Shown piece after piece: positions 157 through 5,214 of a stretch of 5,214 nt of DNA. Numbering within the stretch: position 1 is the stretch's first letter; every line of letters begins with the position of its first letter. Both the position numbers and the translations under genes were made by a program. Source of the stretch: a virus (lineage: Duplodnaviria > Heunggongvirae > Uroviricota > Caudoviricetes); the IMG/VR virus record IMGVR_UViG_2778261572_000007; one strand, written 5' to 3'. The notes beneath the pieces were generated by a model. The model was not told the origin of the DNA, did no database searches, and saw nothing but the letters and a program-made list of their open reading frames with translations.

Positions 157-474
157 TTAACAGATTGACTGAATTCCGTTTTTCTCAACCACAGAAAGCA
201 AACGAAGGGCAGGGCCACCAGGGCGCTTTATTCCCCTTTCCCAGTCTGAAATGAGGTTTTTACTGACATTAAGATATCTGGCGAAAACAGGTTGAGACAG
301 ATGCTCGCGCTCGCGAAGTGCCCGGATTCTTTCTGGCGACATTGTTGGCGCTGGTTGCAGACAAAGTTCATCAAACTCTCTCATAGTTTGTTTTGTTACT
401 GCGCCAATATCCTGAAGTGACTCCATCATTTCATGTACGGATGCAAGCGCATCACTGCGGTAATTTTTACTCAT
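157..474 (-). CDS. XRE-family helix-turn-helix antitoxin / transcriptional regulator (105 aa)
   Basis: Complete minus-strand ORF. The C-terminal half (LSQPVFARYLNVSKNLISDWERGIKRPGGPALRLL) looks like an XRE-type HTH. Its start ATG (474-472) overlaps the stop of the upstream toxin-like ORF in an ATGAGTAA junction. A GGAGG Shine-Dalgarno lies 6 nt upstream, inside the toxin 3' end. Family assignment is from recalled motifs, not a search. Confidence 0.8.
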   Translation of the reverse strand: MSKNYRSDALASVHEMMESLQDIGAVTKQTMREFDELCLQPAPTMSPERIRALREREHLSQPVFARYLNVSKNLISDWERGIKRPGGPALRLLSVVEKNGIQSIC

Positions 475-838
475 TGGGTACCTCCGTAAACTGACCCTGC
501 AGGATCAATTGCGCCAGTTGTTCATCAGTAAGATTGAGAACGTGATGCGCAGCTTTTCGAAATGCATTTTCCTCGATGGCTGTAATATTTTCTCTCTCAT
601 TCTTTGCGTACGCATAGATGAAAAAAGCCTTTTCTGCGACGCGGTAAAAAATTATTGTCCTATAACCGCCTGATTTACCGCCACCTCTTCGGGCTAATCG
701 CTGCTTAATGACACCACTACCCAAATCTGCGGATATGAGTCCCTTATCAGCTAGTTCCACGACTTCTCGCAGAGCTTTATCGGAAATCCGATTTTTTCGT
801 GCGAAGCGTTCAAACCAGGCATTTTTGAAAATGCGCAT
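467..838 (-). CDS. RelE/ParE-superfamily-like toxin (123 aa; HigB-like toxin-first arrangement)
   Basis: Minus-strand ORF from ATG 838-836 to TAA 469-467. The segment GGGKSGGYRTIIFYRV...FFIYAYAKNERENI resembles the core of RelE/ParE-fold toxins that pair with HTH antitoxins. The longer 171-aa ORF in the track starts inside the AT-rich intergenic region and has an implausible Cys/Tyr-rich N-terminus, so the ATG at 838 (or 850) is preferred. The start is uncertain by a few codons. Confidence 0.7.
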   Translation of the reverse strand: MRIFKNAWFERFARKNRISDKALREVVELADKGLISADLGSGVIKQRLARRGGGKSGGYRTIIFYRVAEKAFFIYAYAKNERENITAIEENAFRKAAHHVLNLTDEQLAQLILQGQFTEVPNE

Positions 839-1079
839 GTTTGGTTCCATATCGTTGTGTAATACATAGTGTGACACAATTAAATAGGATGGGCAATATA
901 CATACAGGGGGCTTGCTAAGGGATGGCAGCTCAAAAAACACTCTATTTTTAGAGTATACAAATGACAGAAAGAAAAAGTCATTGTTTTTTCTCATGAAAT
1001 ACGCATTTTTTGGGAGTGAAATCGTTATTTGTAGTGGATATATTCCAGCCATGTTTTATCCAATACCAGAGGTTTTACA
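839..1079. promoter_or_regulatory. AT-rich divergent intergenic region with candidate operator inverted repeats; exact promoters not resolved
   Basis: 241 bp between the minus-strand toxin start (838) and the plus-strand ORF at 1080. Inverted repeat TTGTGT (855-860) - N13 - ACACAA (874-879) sits just upstream of the toxin start. A perfect 6-bp inverted repeat ACTCTA (940-945) - TTTT - TAGAGT (950-955) lies mid-region. No clean sigma70 -35/-10 pair could be assigned by eye. Confidence 0.3.
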
Positions 1080-1651: not shown

Positions 1652-2701
1652 GTGCGGGTATTACTTCGACCTGTTCCGGTACCGGAACTCGGGCTGGTGG
1701 TCCTTAAGCCTGGTCGTGAATCCATGCAGGTATTTCATAACCCTCGAGTGCTGGTGGAGCCGGAACCGAAAAGCATGCGCGGTCTGCCGTCCGGAGTCGT
1801 TCCTGCCATTCGCCAGCCGCTGGCGGAAGACAAAACATTGCTGCCGTTTTTCAGTAACGAACGGGTGATTCGTGCTGCTGGCGGCGCTGGTGCACTTTCT
1901 GACTGGCTGTTGCGTCATGTCAAATCCTGCCAGTGGCCTCATGGCGACTATCACCACAGCGAAACCGTCATACATCGTTACGGTACCGTCGCGATGGTGT
2001 TGTGCTGGCACTGCGACAACCAGCTGCGCGACCAGACCTCCGAGTCACTCGGGCAACTTGCTCATCAAAACCTGTCTGCATGGATGATTGACGTCATTCG
2101 TCACGCAATGAATGGCACACAGGAGCGGGAATTATCTCTGGCTGAATTATCCTGGTGGGCGGTCCGCAATCAGGTGGCGGACGCGCTACCGGAAGCGGTA
2201 TTACGTCGTTCGCTGGGGGTGCGTGCGGAAAAAATCCGCTCAATGTACCGTGAAAGCGACATCGTACCGGGAGAGCAGACCGCCACCAGCATACTGAAAC
2301 AGCGCACAAAAAATCTTGCGCCGCTGCCTCACGCCCACCAGCAACAGAACCCACCACAGGAAAAGACGGTGGTCAGCATTGCCGTTGATCCTGAGTCTCC
2401 GGAATCTTTCATGAAACGACCTAAACGTCGCCGCTGGGTTAACGAGAAATACACACGCTGGGTTAAGACACAGCCGTGTGCGTGTTGTGGTAAGCCAGCC
2501 GACGATCCCCATCACCTGATTGGTCATGGTCAGGGCGGAATGGGGACAAAATCTCACGATATTTTCACGCTACCGCTGTGTCGGGAGCATCACAACGAGC
2601 TTCATGCGGATCCTCTGGCGTTCGAAGAAAAGCATGGTTCTCAGGTTGATTTAATTTTTCGTTTTCTTGATCACGCCTTTGCAACTGGCGTGCTTGGGTA
2701 A
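1652..2701 (+). CDS. Prophage protein of unknown function with a C-terminal Cys/His (HNH-like, probable zinc-binding) cluster; recalled as resembling DUF968 / YdfU-like prophage proteins (349 aa)
   Basis: 1050-nt ORF starting at GTG 1652 with GGAGG at 1643-1647. The C-terminus carries CACCGKPADDPHHLIGHG...LPLCREHHNELH. It sits directly upstream of rusA and Q, a position where lambdoid prophages carry nin-type accessory genes. The family name is from memory and is not verified. Confidence 0.75.
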   Translation: MRVLLRPVPVPELGLVVLKPGRESMQVFHNPRVLVEPEPKSMRGLPSGVVPAIRQPLAEDKTLLPFFSNERVIRAAGGAGALSDWLLRHVKSCQWPHGDYHHSETVIHRYGTVAMVLCWHCDNQLRDQTSESLGQLAHQNLSAWMIDVIRHAMNGTQERELSLAELSWWAVRNQVADALPEAVLRRSLGVRAEKIRSMYRESDIVPGEQTATSILKQRTKNLAPLPHAHQQQNPPQEKTVVSIAVDPESPESFMKRPKRRRWVNEKYTRWVKTQPCACCGKPADDPHHLIGHGQGGMGTKSHDIFTLPLCREHHNELHADPLAFEEKHGSQVDLIFRFLDHAFATGVLG

Positions 2702-3084: not shown

Positions 3085-3906
3085 ATGAAACTGGAAGATT
3101 TACCGAAATACTACTCCCCAAAATCACCTTGCCTGACCGATGCATCGGCCTCAACGTCAAAAGATGCGCTGAGTATCACTGATGTGATGGCCGCGCAGGG
3201 CATGACACAGAATCGGGCTGAGATGGGGTTTTCTGCGTTCCTGGGGAAAATGGGCATCAGTATGAATGACAGGGCGCGGGCAACAGAATTACTGGCAGAT
3301 TATGCACTCAGTCGGTGCGATCGTGTGGCGGCGTTGAGAAAACTTCCGGCAGAAATAAAACCGTTAGTGATGCGCATTATGGCTTCGTACGCTTTTGAGG
3401 ATTATGCCCGCAGCGCAGCGAGTAAAAAGCAGTGCCCTTGTTGCTATGGGGAAAAATTTATTGAAAGCGTAGTTTTTACAAACAAGGTCCAGTATCCGGA
3501 TGGTAAGCCGCCGGTATGGGCAAAGTGTACGAAAGGTGTGTATCCGTCTTACTGGGAAGAATGGAAAAAAGTCAGGGAGGTGGTAAAAGTTGCCTGTCCG
3601 GAGTGTGGCGGAAAGGGTGAGGTTTCCACCGCCTGTAAGGATTGCCGTGGGCGTGGTGTCGCCATTCATCGTGAAGAGTCGGTAAAACGTGGTATGCCTG
3701 TTATCAGAGACTGCCGGCGTTGTGGCGGTCGTGGCTATGAAAGACTGCCATCAACGGAGGCATTTAATGCCATATGCAAAGTGACGAGCGCTATCACGCT
3801 TGATACATGGAAAAAATCAGTGAAACGCTTTTACGATACGTTGGTGGTTCGGTTTGACATTGAAGAGGCATGGGCGGAGCGGCAGTTAAAGAGAGTAACG
3901 CGATAG
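3085..3906 (+). CDS. Q: Late-gene antitermination protein Q-like (273 aa) with four CxxCxGxG zinc-finger-type repeats
   Basis: Called mainly on position: directly after rusA and directly before a P_R'-like promoter and tR'-like terminator. Contains CPCCYGEK, CPECGGKG, CKDCRGRG and CRRCGGRG repeats. Assignment to a specific Q family is not verified. Confidence 0.75.
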   Translation: MKLEDLPKYYSPKSPCLTDASASTSKDALSITDVMAAQGMTQNRAEMGFSAFLGKMGISMNDRARATELLADYALSRCDRVAALRKLPAEIKPLVMRIMASYAFEDYARSAASKKQCPCCYGEKFIESVVFTNKVQYPDGKPPVWAKCTKGVYPSYWEEWKKVREVVKVACPECGGKGEVSTACKDCRGRGVAIHREESVKRGMPVIRDCRRCGGRGYERLPSTEAFNAICKVTSAITLDTWKKSVKRFYDTLVVRFDIEEAWAERQLKRVTR

Positions 3907-3911
3907 TGTTG

Positions 3912-3939
3912 TTGATTTTTCCCGAATCTGTGGTAAATT
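3912..3939 (+). promoter_or_regulatory. P_R'-like late promoter (-35 TTGATT, 16-nt spacer, -10 TAAATT with upstream TGg extended -10-like context); a qut-like site is expected to overlap
   Basis: TTGATT at 3912-3917 and TAAATT at 3934-3939, 6-8 nt after the Q stop (3904-3906). Lambda P_R' also uses a TAAATT -10. A small hairpin CGCCC(3941-3945)/GGGCG(3952-3956) plus T-run sits in the predicted initial transcribed region. The predicted start is near 3946. Confidence 0.5.
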
Positions 3940-4115
3940 CGCCCTAACGATGGGCGTTTTATGCCTGACGTTAGAAGAATTTTTACAACTCGCCCTGATG
4001 GGACTTGTGAGACTTCCGGGCAGGAAGCCAGGAGTAGCGATAAGGCGATGGCAAGCCTGCTGCCCCTGTGTAAAAGGCACCTTAATGGTGCCTTTGTCGT
4101 TTTTATCAAAAGATC

Positions 4116-4137
4116 CCCGCCACTGGCGGGTTTTTTT
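4116..4137 (+). terminator. Rho-independent terminator, tR'-like
   Basis: GC stem CCCGCC (4116-4121) / GGCGGG (4125-4130) with a 3-nt loop, followed by seven T (4131-4137). It lies about 190 nt downstream of the predicted P_R' start, matching the lambda P_R'-6S RNA-tR' architecture. Confidence 0.65.
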
Positions 4138-4265
4138 ATGCCTGAAAAGTGGCGCAGGACGTTAAGTGCACTTGCAAAGAGCAGATGGTTGCACAATTAG
4201 CTAAGGCGGCTGATTCTGAATGCATATTATTCCCGCTGGCTGTCGTTACGGATGTGGCAATAAAA

Positions 4266-4342
4266 CCGTCGCTAGCTCATCCGGATAGAGCATCAGCCTT
4301 CGAAGTTGATGGCGCGGGGTTCGAGTCCCCGGTGACGGTCCA
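4266..4342 (+). tRNA. tRNA-Arg, anticodon TCG (UCG), 77 nt with encoded CCA
   Basis: Manual cloverleaf: acceptor CCGTCGC / GTGACGG (7 bp, one G-U); D-arm GCTC-ATCCGGATA-GAGC; anticodon arm TCAGC-CTTCGAA-GTTGA (anticodon positions 34-36 = TCG); variable loop TGGCG; T-arm CGGGG-TTCGAGT-CCCCG; discriminator T then CCA. Confidence 0.75.
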
Positions 4343-4344
4343 TT

Positions 4345-4856
<512 letters not shown>

Positions 4857-4922: not shown

Positions 4923-5214
4923 ATGCGTAAACTTTATGCCGCCATTTTGTCCGCAGCCATTTGTCTGGCCGTATCCGGTGCGCCTGCATGGGCGTCTGAA
5001 CATCAGTCTACGCTGAGCGCGGGGTATCTTCATGCCCGGACGAACGTTCCCGGCAGTGATGATCTGAACGGGATTAACGTGAAATACCGTTATGAGTTTA
5101 CGGACACACTGGGGATGGTGACGTCGTTCAGCTATGCAGGAGACAAGAATCGCCAGATTACCCGTTACAGCGATACCCGCTGGCATGAAGATTCCGTGCG
5201 TAACCGCTGGTTCA
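4923..5214 (+). CDS. Lom/Ail/PagC/OmpX-family outer-membrane protein, 5' part only (continues beyond the window end)
   Basis: ATG 4923 with GAGAGG SD (4912-4917, 5-nt spacer). N-terminal signal peptide [24 protein letters not shown] with an AWA|S cleavage site. The mature N-terminus [10 protein letters not shown]...[28 protein letters not shown] matches the first beta-strands of the Ail/Lom family (the G-x-N-V-K-Y-R-Y-E signature). No stop codon before 5214. It is absent from the ORF track only because it is unterminated. Confidence 0.85.

What the first reader, a model, noticed from the sequence alone, without database searches (positions are those of the whole stretch)
3085..3906. Large Q-type antiterminator carrying four DnaJ-like CxxCxGxG repeats
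By position this is the late antiterminator, but at 273 aa and with four CxxCxGxG repeats (CPCCYGEK, CPECGGKG, CKDCRGRG, CRRCGGRG) it differs from the small single-zinc-finger lambda Q. The repeat form is the same as in the DnaJ cysteine-rich domain. Whether this is a distinct Q lineage or a Q fused to an extra zinc-ribbon module is unclear from sequence alone.
Basis: partly seen in the sequence, partly recalled or inferred. Interest (0 to 1): 0.45.

Follow-up and report, generated by a model that had tools for sequence, protein, structure and literature searches.

The report
Phi80-type long Q antiterminator, ordinary
This gene encodes a common, already annotated relative of the phage lambda late-gene antiterminator Q that has a second zinc-binding hairpin inserted next to lambda Q's own zinc ribbon, as in phage phi80 Q and E. 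coli K-12 YdfT, so it is ordinary.

Summary
ORF 3085-3906 (+) encodes 273 aa with four Cys motifs at residues 117, 171, 184 and 210. The open question is resolved. The protein is not a separate Q lineage. It is a full-length, collinear member of the lambda-Q family (Pfam PF03589, 175 bits). Residues 1-113 match lambda Q 1-113 and residues 182-273 match lambda Q 116-207. The extra ~68 aa (114-181) are an internal insertion at the base of lambda Q's zinc-ribbon arm. Lambda Q itself carries two CxxCxGxG motifs (CRDCHGTG, CGRCKGVG), which correspond to motifs 3 and 4 here. Motifs 1 and 2 flank a predicted long beta-hairpin and probably bind a second zinc. The same architecture occurs in phi80 Q (269 aa, annotated with its own pR' and Q site), K-12 Qin YdfT, ST104 gp23 and Stx2c-phage Qs, and in most 50%-identity clusters of the family. 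The identical protein is annotated in RefSeq, and close homologues occur in 2495 of 5426 complete E. coli genomes. A lambda-like PR' follows the gene: -35, extended -10, AACGAT pause element at lambda's spacing, then terminators and tRNAs. The one open point is what the second ribbon does, because only short lambda Q appears among solved structures.

The parts
3085..3906 (+). Q antiterminator gene, 273 aa plus stop. It is the long, phi80-type form of the lambda-Q family.
   Evidence: ORF. PF03589 at 2.4e-52. phrog_127 matches over the full length at 1.5e-110. Identical to RefSeq WP_089653492.1 'antitermination protein'.
3085..3264 (+). N-terminal segment, aa 1-60. It is homologous to the lambda Q segment that is disordered when free and folds into the RNA-exit-channel torus and flap-tip contact.
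   Evidence: phmmer alignment to 7ubm_Q residues 1-113. AF2 pLDDT is below 50 for aa 1-25. The role of lambda Q residues 1-60 comes from PMC9388147. G39 is invariant.
3265..3423 (+). First half of the Q body, aa 61-113, ending in the conserved DYxRSAA motif.
   Evidence: Alignments A1 and A4. Helices 60-80 and 92-108 have pLDDT of 86 or more. The lambda Q body is residues 61-113 plus 153-207.
3424..3627 (+). Inserted module absent from lambda Q, aa 114-181. It comprises motif 1 (C117/C120), a predicted long beta-hairpin (strands 125-136 and 159-170 with a variable tip at 137-158) and motif 2 (C171/C174). It is probably a second zinc ribbon.
   Evidence: It is a gap in lambda Q. Strands come from the AF2 models. 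The cysteines are conserved, while the tip is variable in length and sequence.
3628..3738 (+). Lambda-type zinc-ribbon arm, aa 182-218. Motif 3 (C184/C187) corresponds to lambda Q C118/C121 and motif 4 (C210/C213) to lambda Q C144/C147.
   Evidence: Residue-by-residue alignment to 7ubm_Q, 4mo1_A and 7ubj_A. The lambda Q arm is residues 114-152 and is a zinc ribbon.
3739..3903 (+). Second half of the Q body, aa 219-273. It is homologous to the helix-turn-helix and C-terminal helix of lambda Q.
   Evidence: Helices 223-233 and 239-272. T272 corresponds to lambda Q T206 and L268 to L202, and both are conserved.
3912..3917 (+). -35 element of the late promoter PR' (TTGATT).
   Evidence: It aligns with lambda PR' TTGACT.
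3918..3933 (+). Spacer carrying the conserved box TTTCCCGAATCTGTGG, the putative Q-binding element.
   Evidence: The TTTTCCCGAA box lies at the same place downstream of Q in phages Evi, Kpn_R1, Midgardsormr38 and mEp237, whose Qs are 50-97% identical. Phi80 has its annotated Q site at the same position. Binding was not tested.
3931..3939 (+). Extended -10 element of PR' (TGgTAAATT).
   Evidence: The TAAATT hexamer is the same as in lambda PR'.
3946..3951 (+). -10-like sigma-dependent pause element (AACGAT), 6 nt after the -10 as in lambda.
   Evidence: Sequence and spacing are identical to lambda PR'.
4073..4104 (+). First terminator-like hairpin plus T-rich tail.
   Evidence: Scan. Also present in the MFE fold.
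4116..4139 (+). tR'-like intrinsic terminator: a GC hairpin CCCGCC-ACT-GGCGGG followed by T7. It lies about 190 nt after the pause element, close to the size of the lambda 6S RNA unit.
4266..4342 (+). tRNA-Arg (anticodon UCG) downstream of tR'. It would be transcribed by Q-modified polymerase.
   Evidence: ARAGORN. Rfam 53 bits.

Best explanation
The gene encodes the late-gene transcription antiterminator Q of a lambdoid prophage. It is a member of the lambda-Q family in its long, phi80-type form. By homology it should work like lambda Q. The helix-turn-helix body and the zinc-ribbon arm bind a Q-binding element between the -35 and -10 elements of PR'. The protein then docks on RNA polymerase paused at the AACGAT -10-like element. 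Its disordered N-terminus folds, with NusA, into a torus in the RNA-exit channel. The polymerase then reads through tR' into the tRNAs and late genes. This protein differs from lambda Q by a ~68-aa insertion (aa 114-181) at the junction between body and arm. The insertion supplies two more CxxCxG knuckles at the ends of a long beta-hairpin. I infer that motifs 1 and 2 bind a second zinc and motifs 3 and 4 bind the lambda-equivalent zinc. This gives two zinc ribbons side by side, in sequential rather than DnaJ-style nested pairing. I also infer that the second ribbon braces the arm base and adds a peripheral second arm without changing the basic loading geometry. What is shown: family membership, collinearity with lambda Q, the insertion boundaries, cysteine conservation and the PR'/tR' anatomy. 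What is inferred: zinc binding by motifs 1 and 2, the cysteine pairing, and the role of the insertion.
For: Family and collinearity:
- PF03589 scores 175.5 bits against a cut-off of 26.7. Neither PF06530 (Q21) nor PF06323 (Q82) appeared among the Pfam hits at E<=0.1.
- phmmer against PDB gives lambda Q 7ubm_Q at 4.8e-40. Query 1-113 matches lambda Q 1-113 and query 182-273 matches lambda Q 116-207.
- Foldseek of the AF2 model (pLDDT 82.8) finds only lambda Q structures at E<=0.001, best 2e-13.
- Alignments place the insertion between lambda Q G115 and A116, and equate C184/C187/C210/C213 with lambda Q C118/C121/C144/C147.

The same architecture elsewhere:
- Phi80 Q (269 aa) has the same insertion with a recognisably similar sequence. 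Its record annotates pR', a Q binding site and terminators.
- K-12 Qin YdfT (250 aa) also has it.

The inserted module:
- The AF2 models show strands 125-136 and 159-170 with knuckles at both ends.
- The motif 1 and motif 2 cysteines are present whenever the insertion is present. All three 2-motif representatives lack motif 1; two of them lack motif 2 as well, and in the third (P0192) the placement of its first motif is uncertain.

Promoter and context:
- PR' has -35, -10 and AACGAT at lambda's spacing, followed by two terminators.
- The lambda Q mechanism and residue roles come from PMC9388147.
Against: - No experiment was done on this protein. Activity is inferred from homology and from the intact reading frame.
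- In this particular window the late region is deleted just after the tRNAs. This copy may therefore no longer control a lytic programme.
The sequential pairing rests on homology to the lambda Q zinc site and on the predicted hairpin geometry.
- Lambda Q residues that contact the beta' zinc-binding domain (110-112, 117, 122-126) flank the insertion point. The insertion could therefore alter the polymerase contact rather than being peripheral.
Confidence: 0.9

Rival explanations
1. The four motifs form a genuine DnaJ-type cysteine-rich domain, with nested zinc centres (1+4 and 2+3) and chaperone-like or thiol-disulfide activity, fused into Q. On this reading the protein has a second function unrelated to antitermination.
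For: - PF00684 (DnaJ_CXXCXGXG) hits at 1.5e-6 over aa 171-218.
- TIGR02349 (DnaJ) gives a weak hit.
- One Serratia homologue is named 'chaperone protein DnaJ' by its source (P0034).
Against: - The PF00684 score of 28.8 bits is below the family cut-off of 32.7.
- Motifs 3 and 4 are residue-for-residue the lambda Q zinc ligands, which pair with each other in the crystal structures. This excludes the DnaJ 1+4/2+3 scheme unless the site was rewired.
- There is no J domain, no G/F region and no DnaJ C-terminal domain.
- Motifs 1 and 2 lie from 14 to more than 60 residues apart in homologues, unlike the fixed DnaJ spacing.
Confidence: 0.03
2. The second zinc-ribbon hairpin is a functional second arm that makes specific extra contacts, either with DNA (a longer or different Q-binding element) or with RNA polymerase or NusA. 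Long-form Qs would then load differently from lambda Q.
For: - The insertion sits between lambda Q residues that touch the beta' zinc-binding domain, at the hinge of the DNA- and sigma-region-4-contacting arm.
- The base of the hairpin (GFIEaeVFTNK and REVvrV) is conserved across many clusters.
- Phages with this Q subtype share their own spacer box TTTTCCCGAA, which differs from lambda's.
Against: - The hairpin tip is the least conserved part of the protein. It is reduced to a few residues in some homologues, for example P0126, P0133 and P0156. This argues against a conserved partner such as RNA polymerase.
- The PR' geometry (-35/-10 spacing, distance from -10 to the pause element) is the same as in lambda.
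- The different spacer box can be explained by the divergent helix-turn-helix and arm alone.
Confidence: 0.3
3. In this window the gene is a leftover of a decayed prophage. It is intact in sequence but has no late operon to switch on, and at most it drives the tRNAs, a J fragment and lom.
For: - The window departs from the intact prophage inside the second tRNA at about 4410. It continues in frame with the last 147 codons of tail-tip gene J, then lom.
- No complete E. coli genome covers more than 77% of the window.
Against: - The Q reading frame, the PR' elements and the terminators are all intact. The Q gene is 100% identical to the copy in an apparently complete prophage.
- This rival concerns the context, not what the protein is.
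Confidence: 0.5

Closest known systems
Phage phi80 Q (gp17, AFV29194.1, 269 aa), lambda-Q family
   Same: It has the same long architecture. The insertion lies at the same place with clearly related sequence (CDCCDGGGFTEAQVFTNKVSYPWGKPPYWSK...REVVRVKCKPCNGKG). Overall identity is 41%. The gene is followed by an annotated pR' with a Q site between -35 and -10, an AACGCT pause-like element and a terminator.
   Different: Motif 3 is CxC (SCR-CHGKG) rather than CxxC. The C-terminal body is more divergent. The spacer box is TCGCGGA rather than TCCCGAA.
Phage lambda Q (207 aa; PDB 4MO1, 7UBJ-7UBN)
   Same: It is collinear over all 207 residues, at about 29% identity by tblastn over the full query and 40% in the MAFFT alignment. 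The N-terminal segment, the body with its helix-turn-helix, the zinc-ribbon arm with two CxxCxGxG motifs and the C-terminal helix all correspond. The PR' -10 TAAATT and the AACGAT pause element are the same.
   Different: Lambda Q lacks residues 114-181 of this protein and so has one zinc ribbon instead of two. The spacer (QBE) sequence differs.
E. coli K-12 Qin prophage YdfT/QuuQ (b1559, 250 aa), together with mEp460 and Stx2c-phage Qs
   Same: They are long-form lambda-family Qs with four Cys motifs. YdfT lies next to a DUF968 gene (ydfU), as here.
   Different: The hairpin is shorter (250 aa in total). Identity is about 39-43%. K-12 Qin has no rusA between ydfU and ydfT.
DnaJ/Hsp40 cysteine-rich domain (PF00684; PDB 1EXK) and anti-TRAP
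   Different: The Pfam hit is below threshold. The zinc pairing is probably sequential rather than nested. The spacing is variable. No other DnaJ domains are present, and the context and function are transcriptional.

Membership tests
Lambda-Q family of antiterminators (Pfam PF03589) | Score against the family profile above the curated cut-off | tested here: met
   175.5 bits against 26.7, E 2.4e-52. phrog_127 'anti-termination protein Q-like' matches the full length.
Lambda-Q family of antiterminators (Pfam PF03589) | Collinear homology to lambda Q across the N-terminal segment, body (HTH) and C-terminal helix, with the lambda Q fold | tested here: met
   phmmer against 7ubm_Q covers lambda Q 1-113 and 116-207. 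Foldseek finds only lambda Q structures, best at 2e-13.
Lambda-Q family of antiterminators (Pfam PF03589) | Four zinc-ligand cysteines of the arm (lambda Q C118, C121, C144, C147) | tested here: met
   C184, C187, C210 and C213 align with them and are invariant. Zinc binding itself was not measured.
Lambda-Q family of antiterminators (Pfam PF03589) | Gene placed at the end of the nin region, directly upstream of PR', a promoter-proximal -10-like pause element, tR' and the lysis genes | tested here: met
   rusA lies upstream. PR' and AACGAT are at lambda's spacing. Terminators follow. The identical gene lies upstream of holin, lysozyme and terminase in NZ_CP148440.1. In the window itself the late genes are deleted.
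Lambda-Q family of antiterminators (Pfam PF03589) | QBE binding and antitermination at tR' | not testable with these tools
   This needs a reporter or an in vitro transcription assay.
Q21 family (PF06530) and Q82 family (PF06323) | Match to either family profile | tested here: not met
   Neither family appeared among the Pfam hits at E<=0.1. The family definitions come from PMC9388147.
DnaJ cysteine-rich domain (PF00684) | Score above the curated cut-off | tested here: not met
   28.8 bits against 32.7. The TIGR02349 score of 24.6 is far below its cut-off of 377.
DnaJ cysteine-rich domain (PF00684) | Four CxxCxGxG repeats | tested here: inconclusive
   Three repeats are exact and one is CxxCxGxK. 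Many homologues have CxC at motif 3.
DnaJ cysteine-rich domain (PF00684) | Nested zinc centres (motifs 1+4 and 2+3) | not testable with these tools
Homology to the lambda Q zinc site (motifs 3+4) and the predicted hairpin 125-136/159-170 argue for 1+2 and 3+4.
DnaJ cysteine-rich domain (PF00684) | Embedded in a J-domain chaperone (J domain, G/F region, C-terminal domains) | tested here: not met
   No such domains were found in the Pfam or NCBIfam scans.

The most novel reading that the evidence does not exclude
The two-zinc, four-motif architecture may be the ancestral and predominant state of the lambda-Q family, with textbook lambda Q a reduced derivative that lost one ribbon. The second ribbon may then be a working second arm that contacts DNA or RNA polymerase in the loading complex, giving long-form Qs a different QBE footprint or NusA dependence from the solved lambda Q complexes.
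Probability: 0.2. Interest if true: 0.4.

Novelty: already known. Interest (0 to 1): 0.15.

Why it matters
It matters little as a discovery. The protein is annotated, very common in E. coli prophages, and has the same architecture as phi80 Q and K-12 YdfT. Three points are still useful.

- Databases occasionally mislabel such proteins as DnaJ because of the motif.
- All lambda-family Q structures found in the PDB searches here are of the short form, which is the minority form. Long-form Qs, including those of Stx2c-converting phages, carry a second zinc ribbon next to the polymerase-contacting surface whose role is unknown.
- The conserved TTTTCCCGAA box gives a testable Q-binding element for this subtype.

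Tried and rejected
- **Distinct Q lineage (Q21 or Q82 type).** Rejected. Neither family profile was among the Pfam hits, whereas PF03589 matched strongly.
- **Terminal fusion of a zinc module.** Rejected. The extra residues are internal, between lambda Q residues 115 and 116.
- **Insertion as a tandem duplication of the lambda-type arm.** Only weak support. BLASTP of residues 113-182 against 183-224 gave E 0.002 for a single comparison, essentially the knuckle plus its preceding strand. Left open.
- **Cysteine pairing from the model.** Not possible, because coordinates of the AF2 models are not exposed. Only secondary structure was usable.
- **Key older literature.** Guo & Roberts 2004 (PMC415771) and Vorobiev 2014 (PMC3951671) are not held in the library. 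I therefore could not confirm what has been published about the phi80 insertion. Full-text searches for Q together with CXXCXGXG or DnaJ found nothing relevant.
- **Known RNA in the PR'-tR' interval.** Rfam found none, only the two tRNAs.
- **Direction of evolution.** An NJ midpoint-rooted tree scatters the three short forms among the long forms. The tree is star-like, has no support values, and recombination is likely, so this is only a hint.

Full report
**Observation.** The window has an ORF at 3085..3906 on the + strand that encodes 273 aa. In 100,000 shuffles of the protein, no shuffle gave more than two matches to C..C.G, and 96.7% gave none. All eight cysteines are invariant or nearly invariant in 109 homologues. 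Motif 1 ends in K rather than G.

**What the protein is.** Pfam places it in PF03589 (Antiterm, the lambda-Q family) at 175.5 bits against a cut-off of 26.7. The Q21 (PF06530) and Q82 (PF06323) profiles were not among the hits at E<=0.1. The DnaJ_CXXCXGXG model scores 28.8 bits, below its cut-off of 32.7. PHROG 127 ('anti-termination protein Q-like') matches the full length.

A sequence search of the PDB finds lambda Q (7ubm_Q) at 4.8e-40 in two collinear blocks. Query 1-113 aligns with lambda Q 1-113, and query 182-273 aligns with lambda Q 116-207. An AlphaFold2 model built from 109 homologues has mean pLDDT 82.8. Among solved structures it matches only lambda Q entries at E<=0.001, best at 2e-13. 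This is the same lineage as lambda Q, not a separate Q family.

**Anatomy of the difference.** Alignments with lambda Q, phi80 Q, K-12 YdfT, ST104 gp23 and the mEp237, mEp460 and mEp554 Qs place the extra residues as one internal insertion. It lies between lambda Q G115 and A116, corresponding to residues 114-181 here.

- Lambda Q has its own two CxxCxGxG motifs, CRDCHGTG (C118/C121) and CGRCKGVG (C144/C147).
- These are motifs 3 and 4 of the window protein (C184/C187 and C210/C213).
- According to PMC9388147 they bind the zinc of the 'Q-lambda arm', a zinc ribbon spanning residues 114-152.
- Only motifs 1 and 2 are therefore extra.

In the full-length and isolated-module AF2 models, motif 1 is followed by a 12-residue strand (125-136). 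A loop with short helical turns (137-158) follows, then a second 12-residue strand (159-170) leading into motif 2. Two equal antiparallel strands bring motifs 1 and 2 together, which is the layout of a zinc ribbon. Motifs 3 and 4 likewise flank the lambda-type strand-helix-strand arm.

I therefore infer two adjacent zinc ribbons with sequential pairing (1+2 and 3+4), not the nested 1+4/2+3 pairing of DnaJ. I could not verify this from coordinates, because the model files are not exposed.

**How common the architecture is.**

- The identical protein is RefSeq WP_089653492.1 'antitermination protein'. Homologues at 80% nucleotide identity or more occur in 2495 of 5426 complete E. coli genomes.
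- Phi80 Q (gp17, 269 aa) carries the same insertion with clearly related sequence. Its record annotates pR', a Q binding site and terminators.
- Phi80 Q is the subject of Guo & Roberts 2004, cited in PMC9388147, but that paper is not held in the library.
- K-12 Qin YdfT (250 aa), ST104 gene 23 and the Q homologues of Stx2c-converting phages are also long forms.
- A search of 1.84 billion cluster representatives finds only 236 clusters at E<=1e-3, so the family is small.
- Nearly all of the near-full-length representatives I aligned have three or four motifs. Only three have the two-motif form (P0218, which is lambda-type, P0185 and P0192).

Among the long forms, motifs 1 and 2 lie from 14 to more than 60 residues apart. 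The hairpin tip is the least conserved region, whereas the cysteines are present in every sequence that has the insertion. On an NJ midpoint-rooted tree of the shared columns, the three short forms fall in different places among the long forms. This hints that the short lambda form arose by loss. The tree is star-like and has no support values, so the hint is weak.

**Regulatory context.** Directly after the stop codon lies a lambda-like late promoter:

- -35 TTGATT (3912-3917)
- extended -10 TGgTAAATT (3931-3939)
- the -10-like pause element AACGAT (3946-3951), 6 nt after the -10 exactly as in lambda PR'

The promoter spacer carries TTTTCCCGAATCTGTG. This box is conserved at the same place downstream of related long-form Qs in phages Evi, Kpn_R1 (Klebsiella), Midgardsormr38 (Erwinia) and mEp237. 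It occupies the position of the annotated Q site in phi80, so it is the likely Q-binding element.

**Mechanism.** By homology with lambda Q (PMC9388147), the following steps are expected:

1. The helix-turn-helix body (aa 61-113 and 219-273) and the lambda-type arm (182-218) bind the QBE.
2. The arm tip contacts sigma region 4.
3. The region around the arm base contacts the beta' zinc-binding domain of polymerase paused at AACGAT.
4. The N-terminal ~60 residues fold with NusA into a torus that narrows the RNA-exit channel and blocks terminator hairpin formation. These residues have low pLDDT here, as expected for a segment that is disordered when free.

Several positions support this. G39 is conserved, and L268/T272 correspond to lambda Q L202/T206.

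The insertion sits at the hinge where the lambda Q arm swings by about 75 degrees. It lies between lambda Q residues 110-112 and 117, which touch the beta' zinc-binding domain. Two facts suggest how it is accommodated. The promoter geometry is unchanged from lambda, and the hairpin tip is variable and sometimes almost absent. The most likely role of the second zinc site is therefore to brace the arm base, with the hairpin as a peripheral second arm. A specific extra contact with DNA or polymerase is possible but less likely. These last points are inference.

**This particular copy.** The window follows the intact prophage up to about 4410, inside the 3' acceptor arm of tRNA-Thr. It then continues in frame with the last 147 codons of tail-tip gene J (4413-4856), followed by lom from 4923. 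No complete E. coli genome covers more than 77% of the window. This prophage has therefore probably lost its lysis and morphogenesis genes. The Q gene and PR' are intact but may have nothing left to switch on apart from the tRNAs, the J fragment and lom.

**Verdict.** The open question is answered: the protein is a lambda-family Q with an internal second zinc ribbon. The architecture is long present in sequence databases and in a classically studied phage (phi80), so novelty is low. The one point of residual interest is that the only lambda-family Q structures found are of short lambda Q, while the common long form has an uncharacterised second ribbon next to the polymerase-contacting surface.

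Noticed in passing
window 4345-4417, junction at about 4410/4411: A second tRNA follows tRNA-Arg. Rfam scores it at 48 bits, and it corresponds to tRNA-Thr in NZ_CP148440.1. ARAGORN does not call it. Its 3' acceptor arm is replaced (…TTCGATTCCGGTA|AGGGGAAAC instead of …GGTAGTCGGCACCA). At that point the window leaves the intact-prophage sequence.
   Followed up: yes
window 4413-4856 and 4923-5214: Directly after the junction the frame is open for the last 147 codons of tail-tip protein J (the Ig_GpJ_C domain). An Ail/Lom-family gene then starts at 4923 and runs off the window. The lysis, head and most tail genes appear to have been deleted between the tRNAs and the 3' end of J. No complete E. 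coli genome has this exact junction; the best coverage of the window is 77%.
   Followed up: partly
window 3917-3933; L010, L011, L012 and L004 downstream of Q: The box TTTTCCCGAA(t/a)(c/t)(t/c)G lies between the -35 and -10 of PR'. It is conserved in E. coli, Klebsiella and Erwinia phages whose long-form Qs are 50-97% identical. Lambda and phi80 have different boxes. It is a candidate Q-binding element for this Q subtype.
   Followed up: partly
window 157-982, minus strand: A RelE/ParE-type toxin (Pfam RelE, 1.3e-46) overlaps a downstream HTH_3 antitoxin-like gene (157-474). The 171-aa ORF is longer than the Pfam domain, which covers aa 49-168. The true start is probably an internal Met near MEPNMRIF.
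   Followed up: no
window 1652-2701; L010 1-317: A DUF968 protein (349 aa, YdfU-like, with an HNH-like Cys/His C-terminus) lies two genes upstream of Q. In the phage Evi record the orthologous gene is annotated 'Phage antitermination protein Q', which looks like an annotation error carried over from its neighbour.
   Followed up: no
P0034 (Serratia quinivorans homologue): A long-form Q homologue (59% identical) is named 'chaperone protein DnaJ' by its source. This is probably a mislabel caused by the CxxCxGxG motifs.
   Followed up: no
window 3946-4139: The PR'-tR' interval of about 190 nt would give a short terminated transcript during lysogeny, like lambda 6S RNA or the StxS precursor described in PMC7547250. 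A 2026 preprint links the PasD sRNAs to PF03589 Q genes. Rfam found no known family here, and I did not compare the interval with Pas or StxS sequences.
   Followed up: no
homologues listed: Most homologues carry a precomputed Pfam hit PF27659.1 in addition to PF03589 and PF00684. That family is not in the local Pfam copy, so I could not tell which part of the protein it covers.
   Followed up: no
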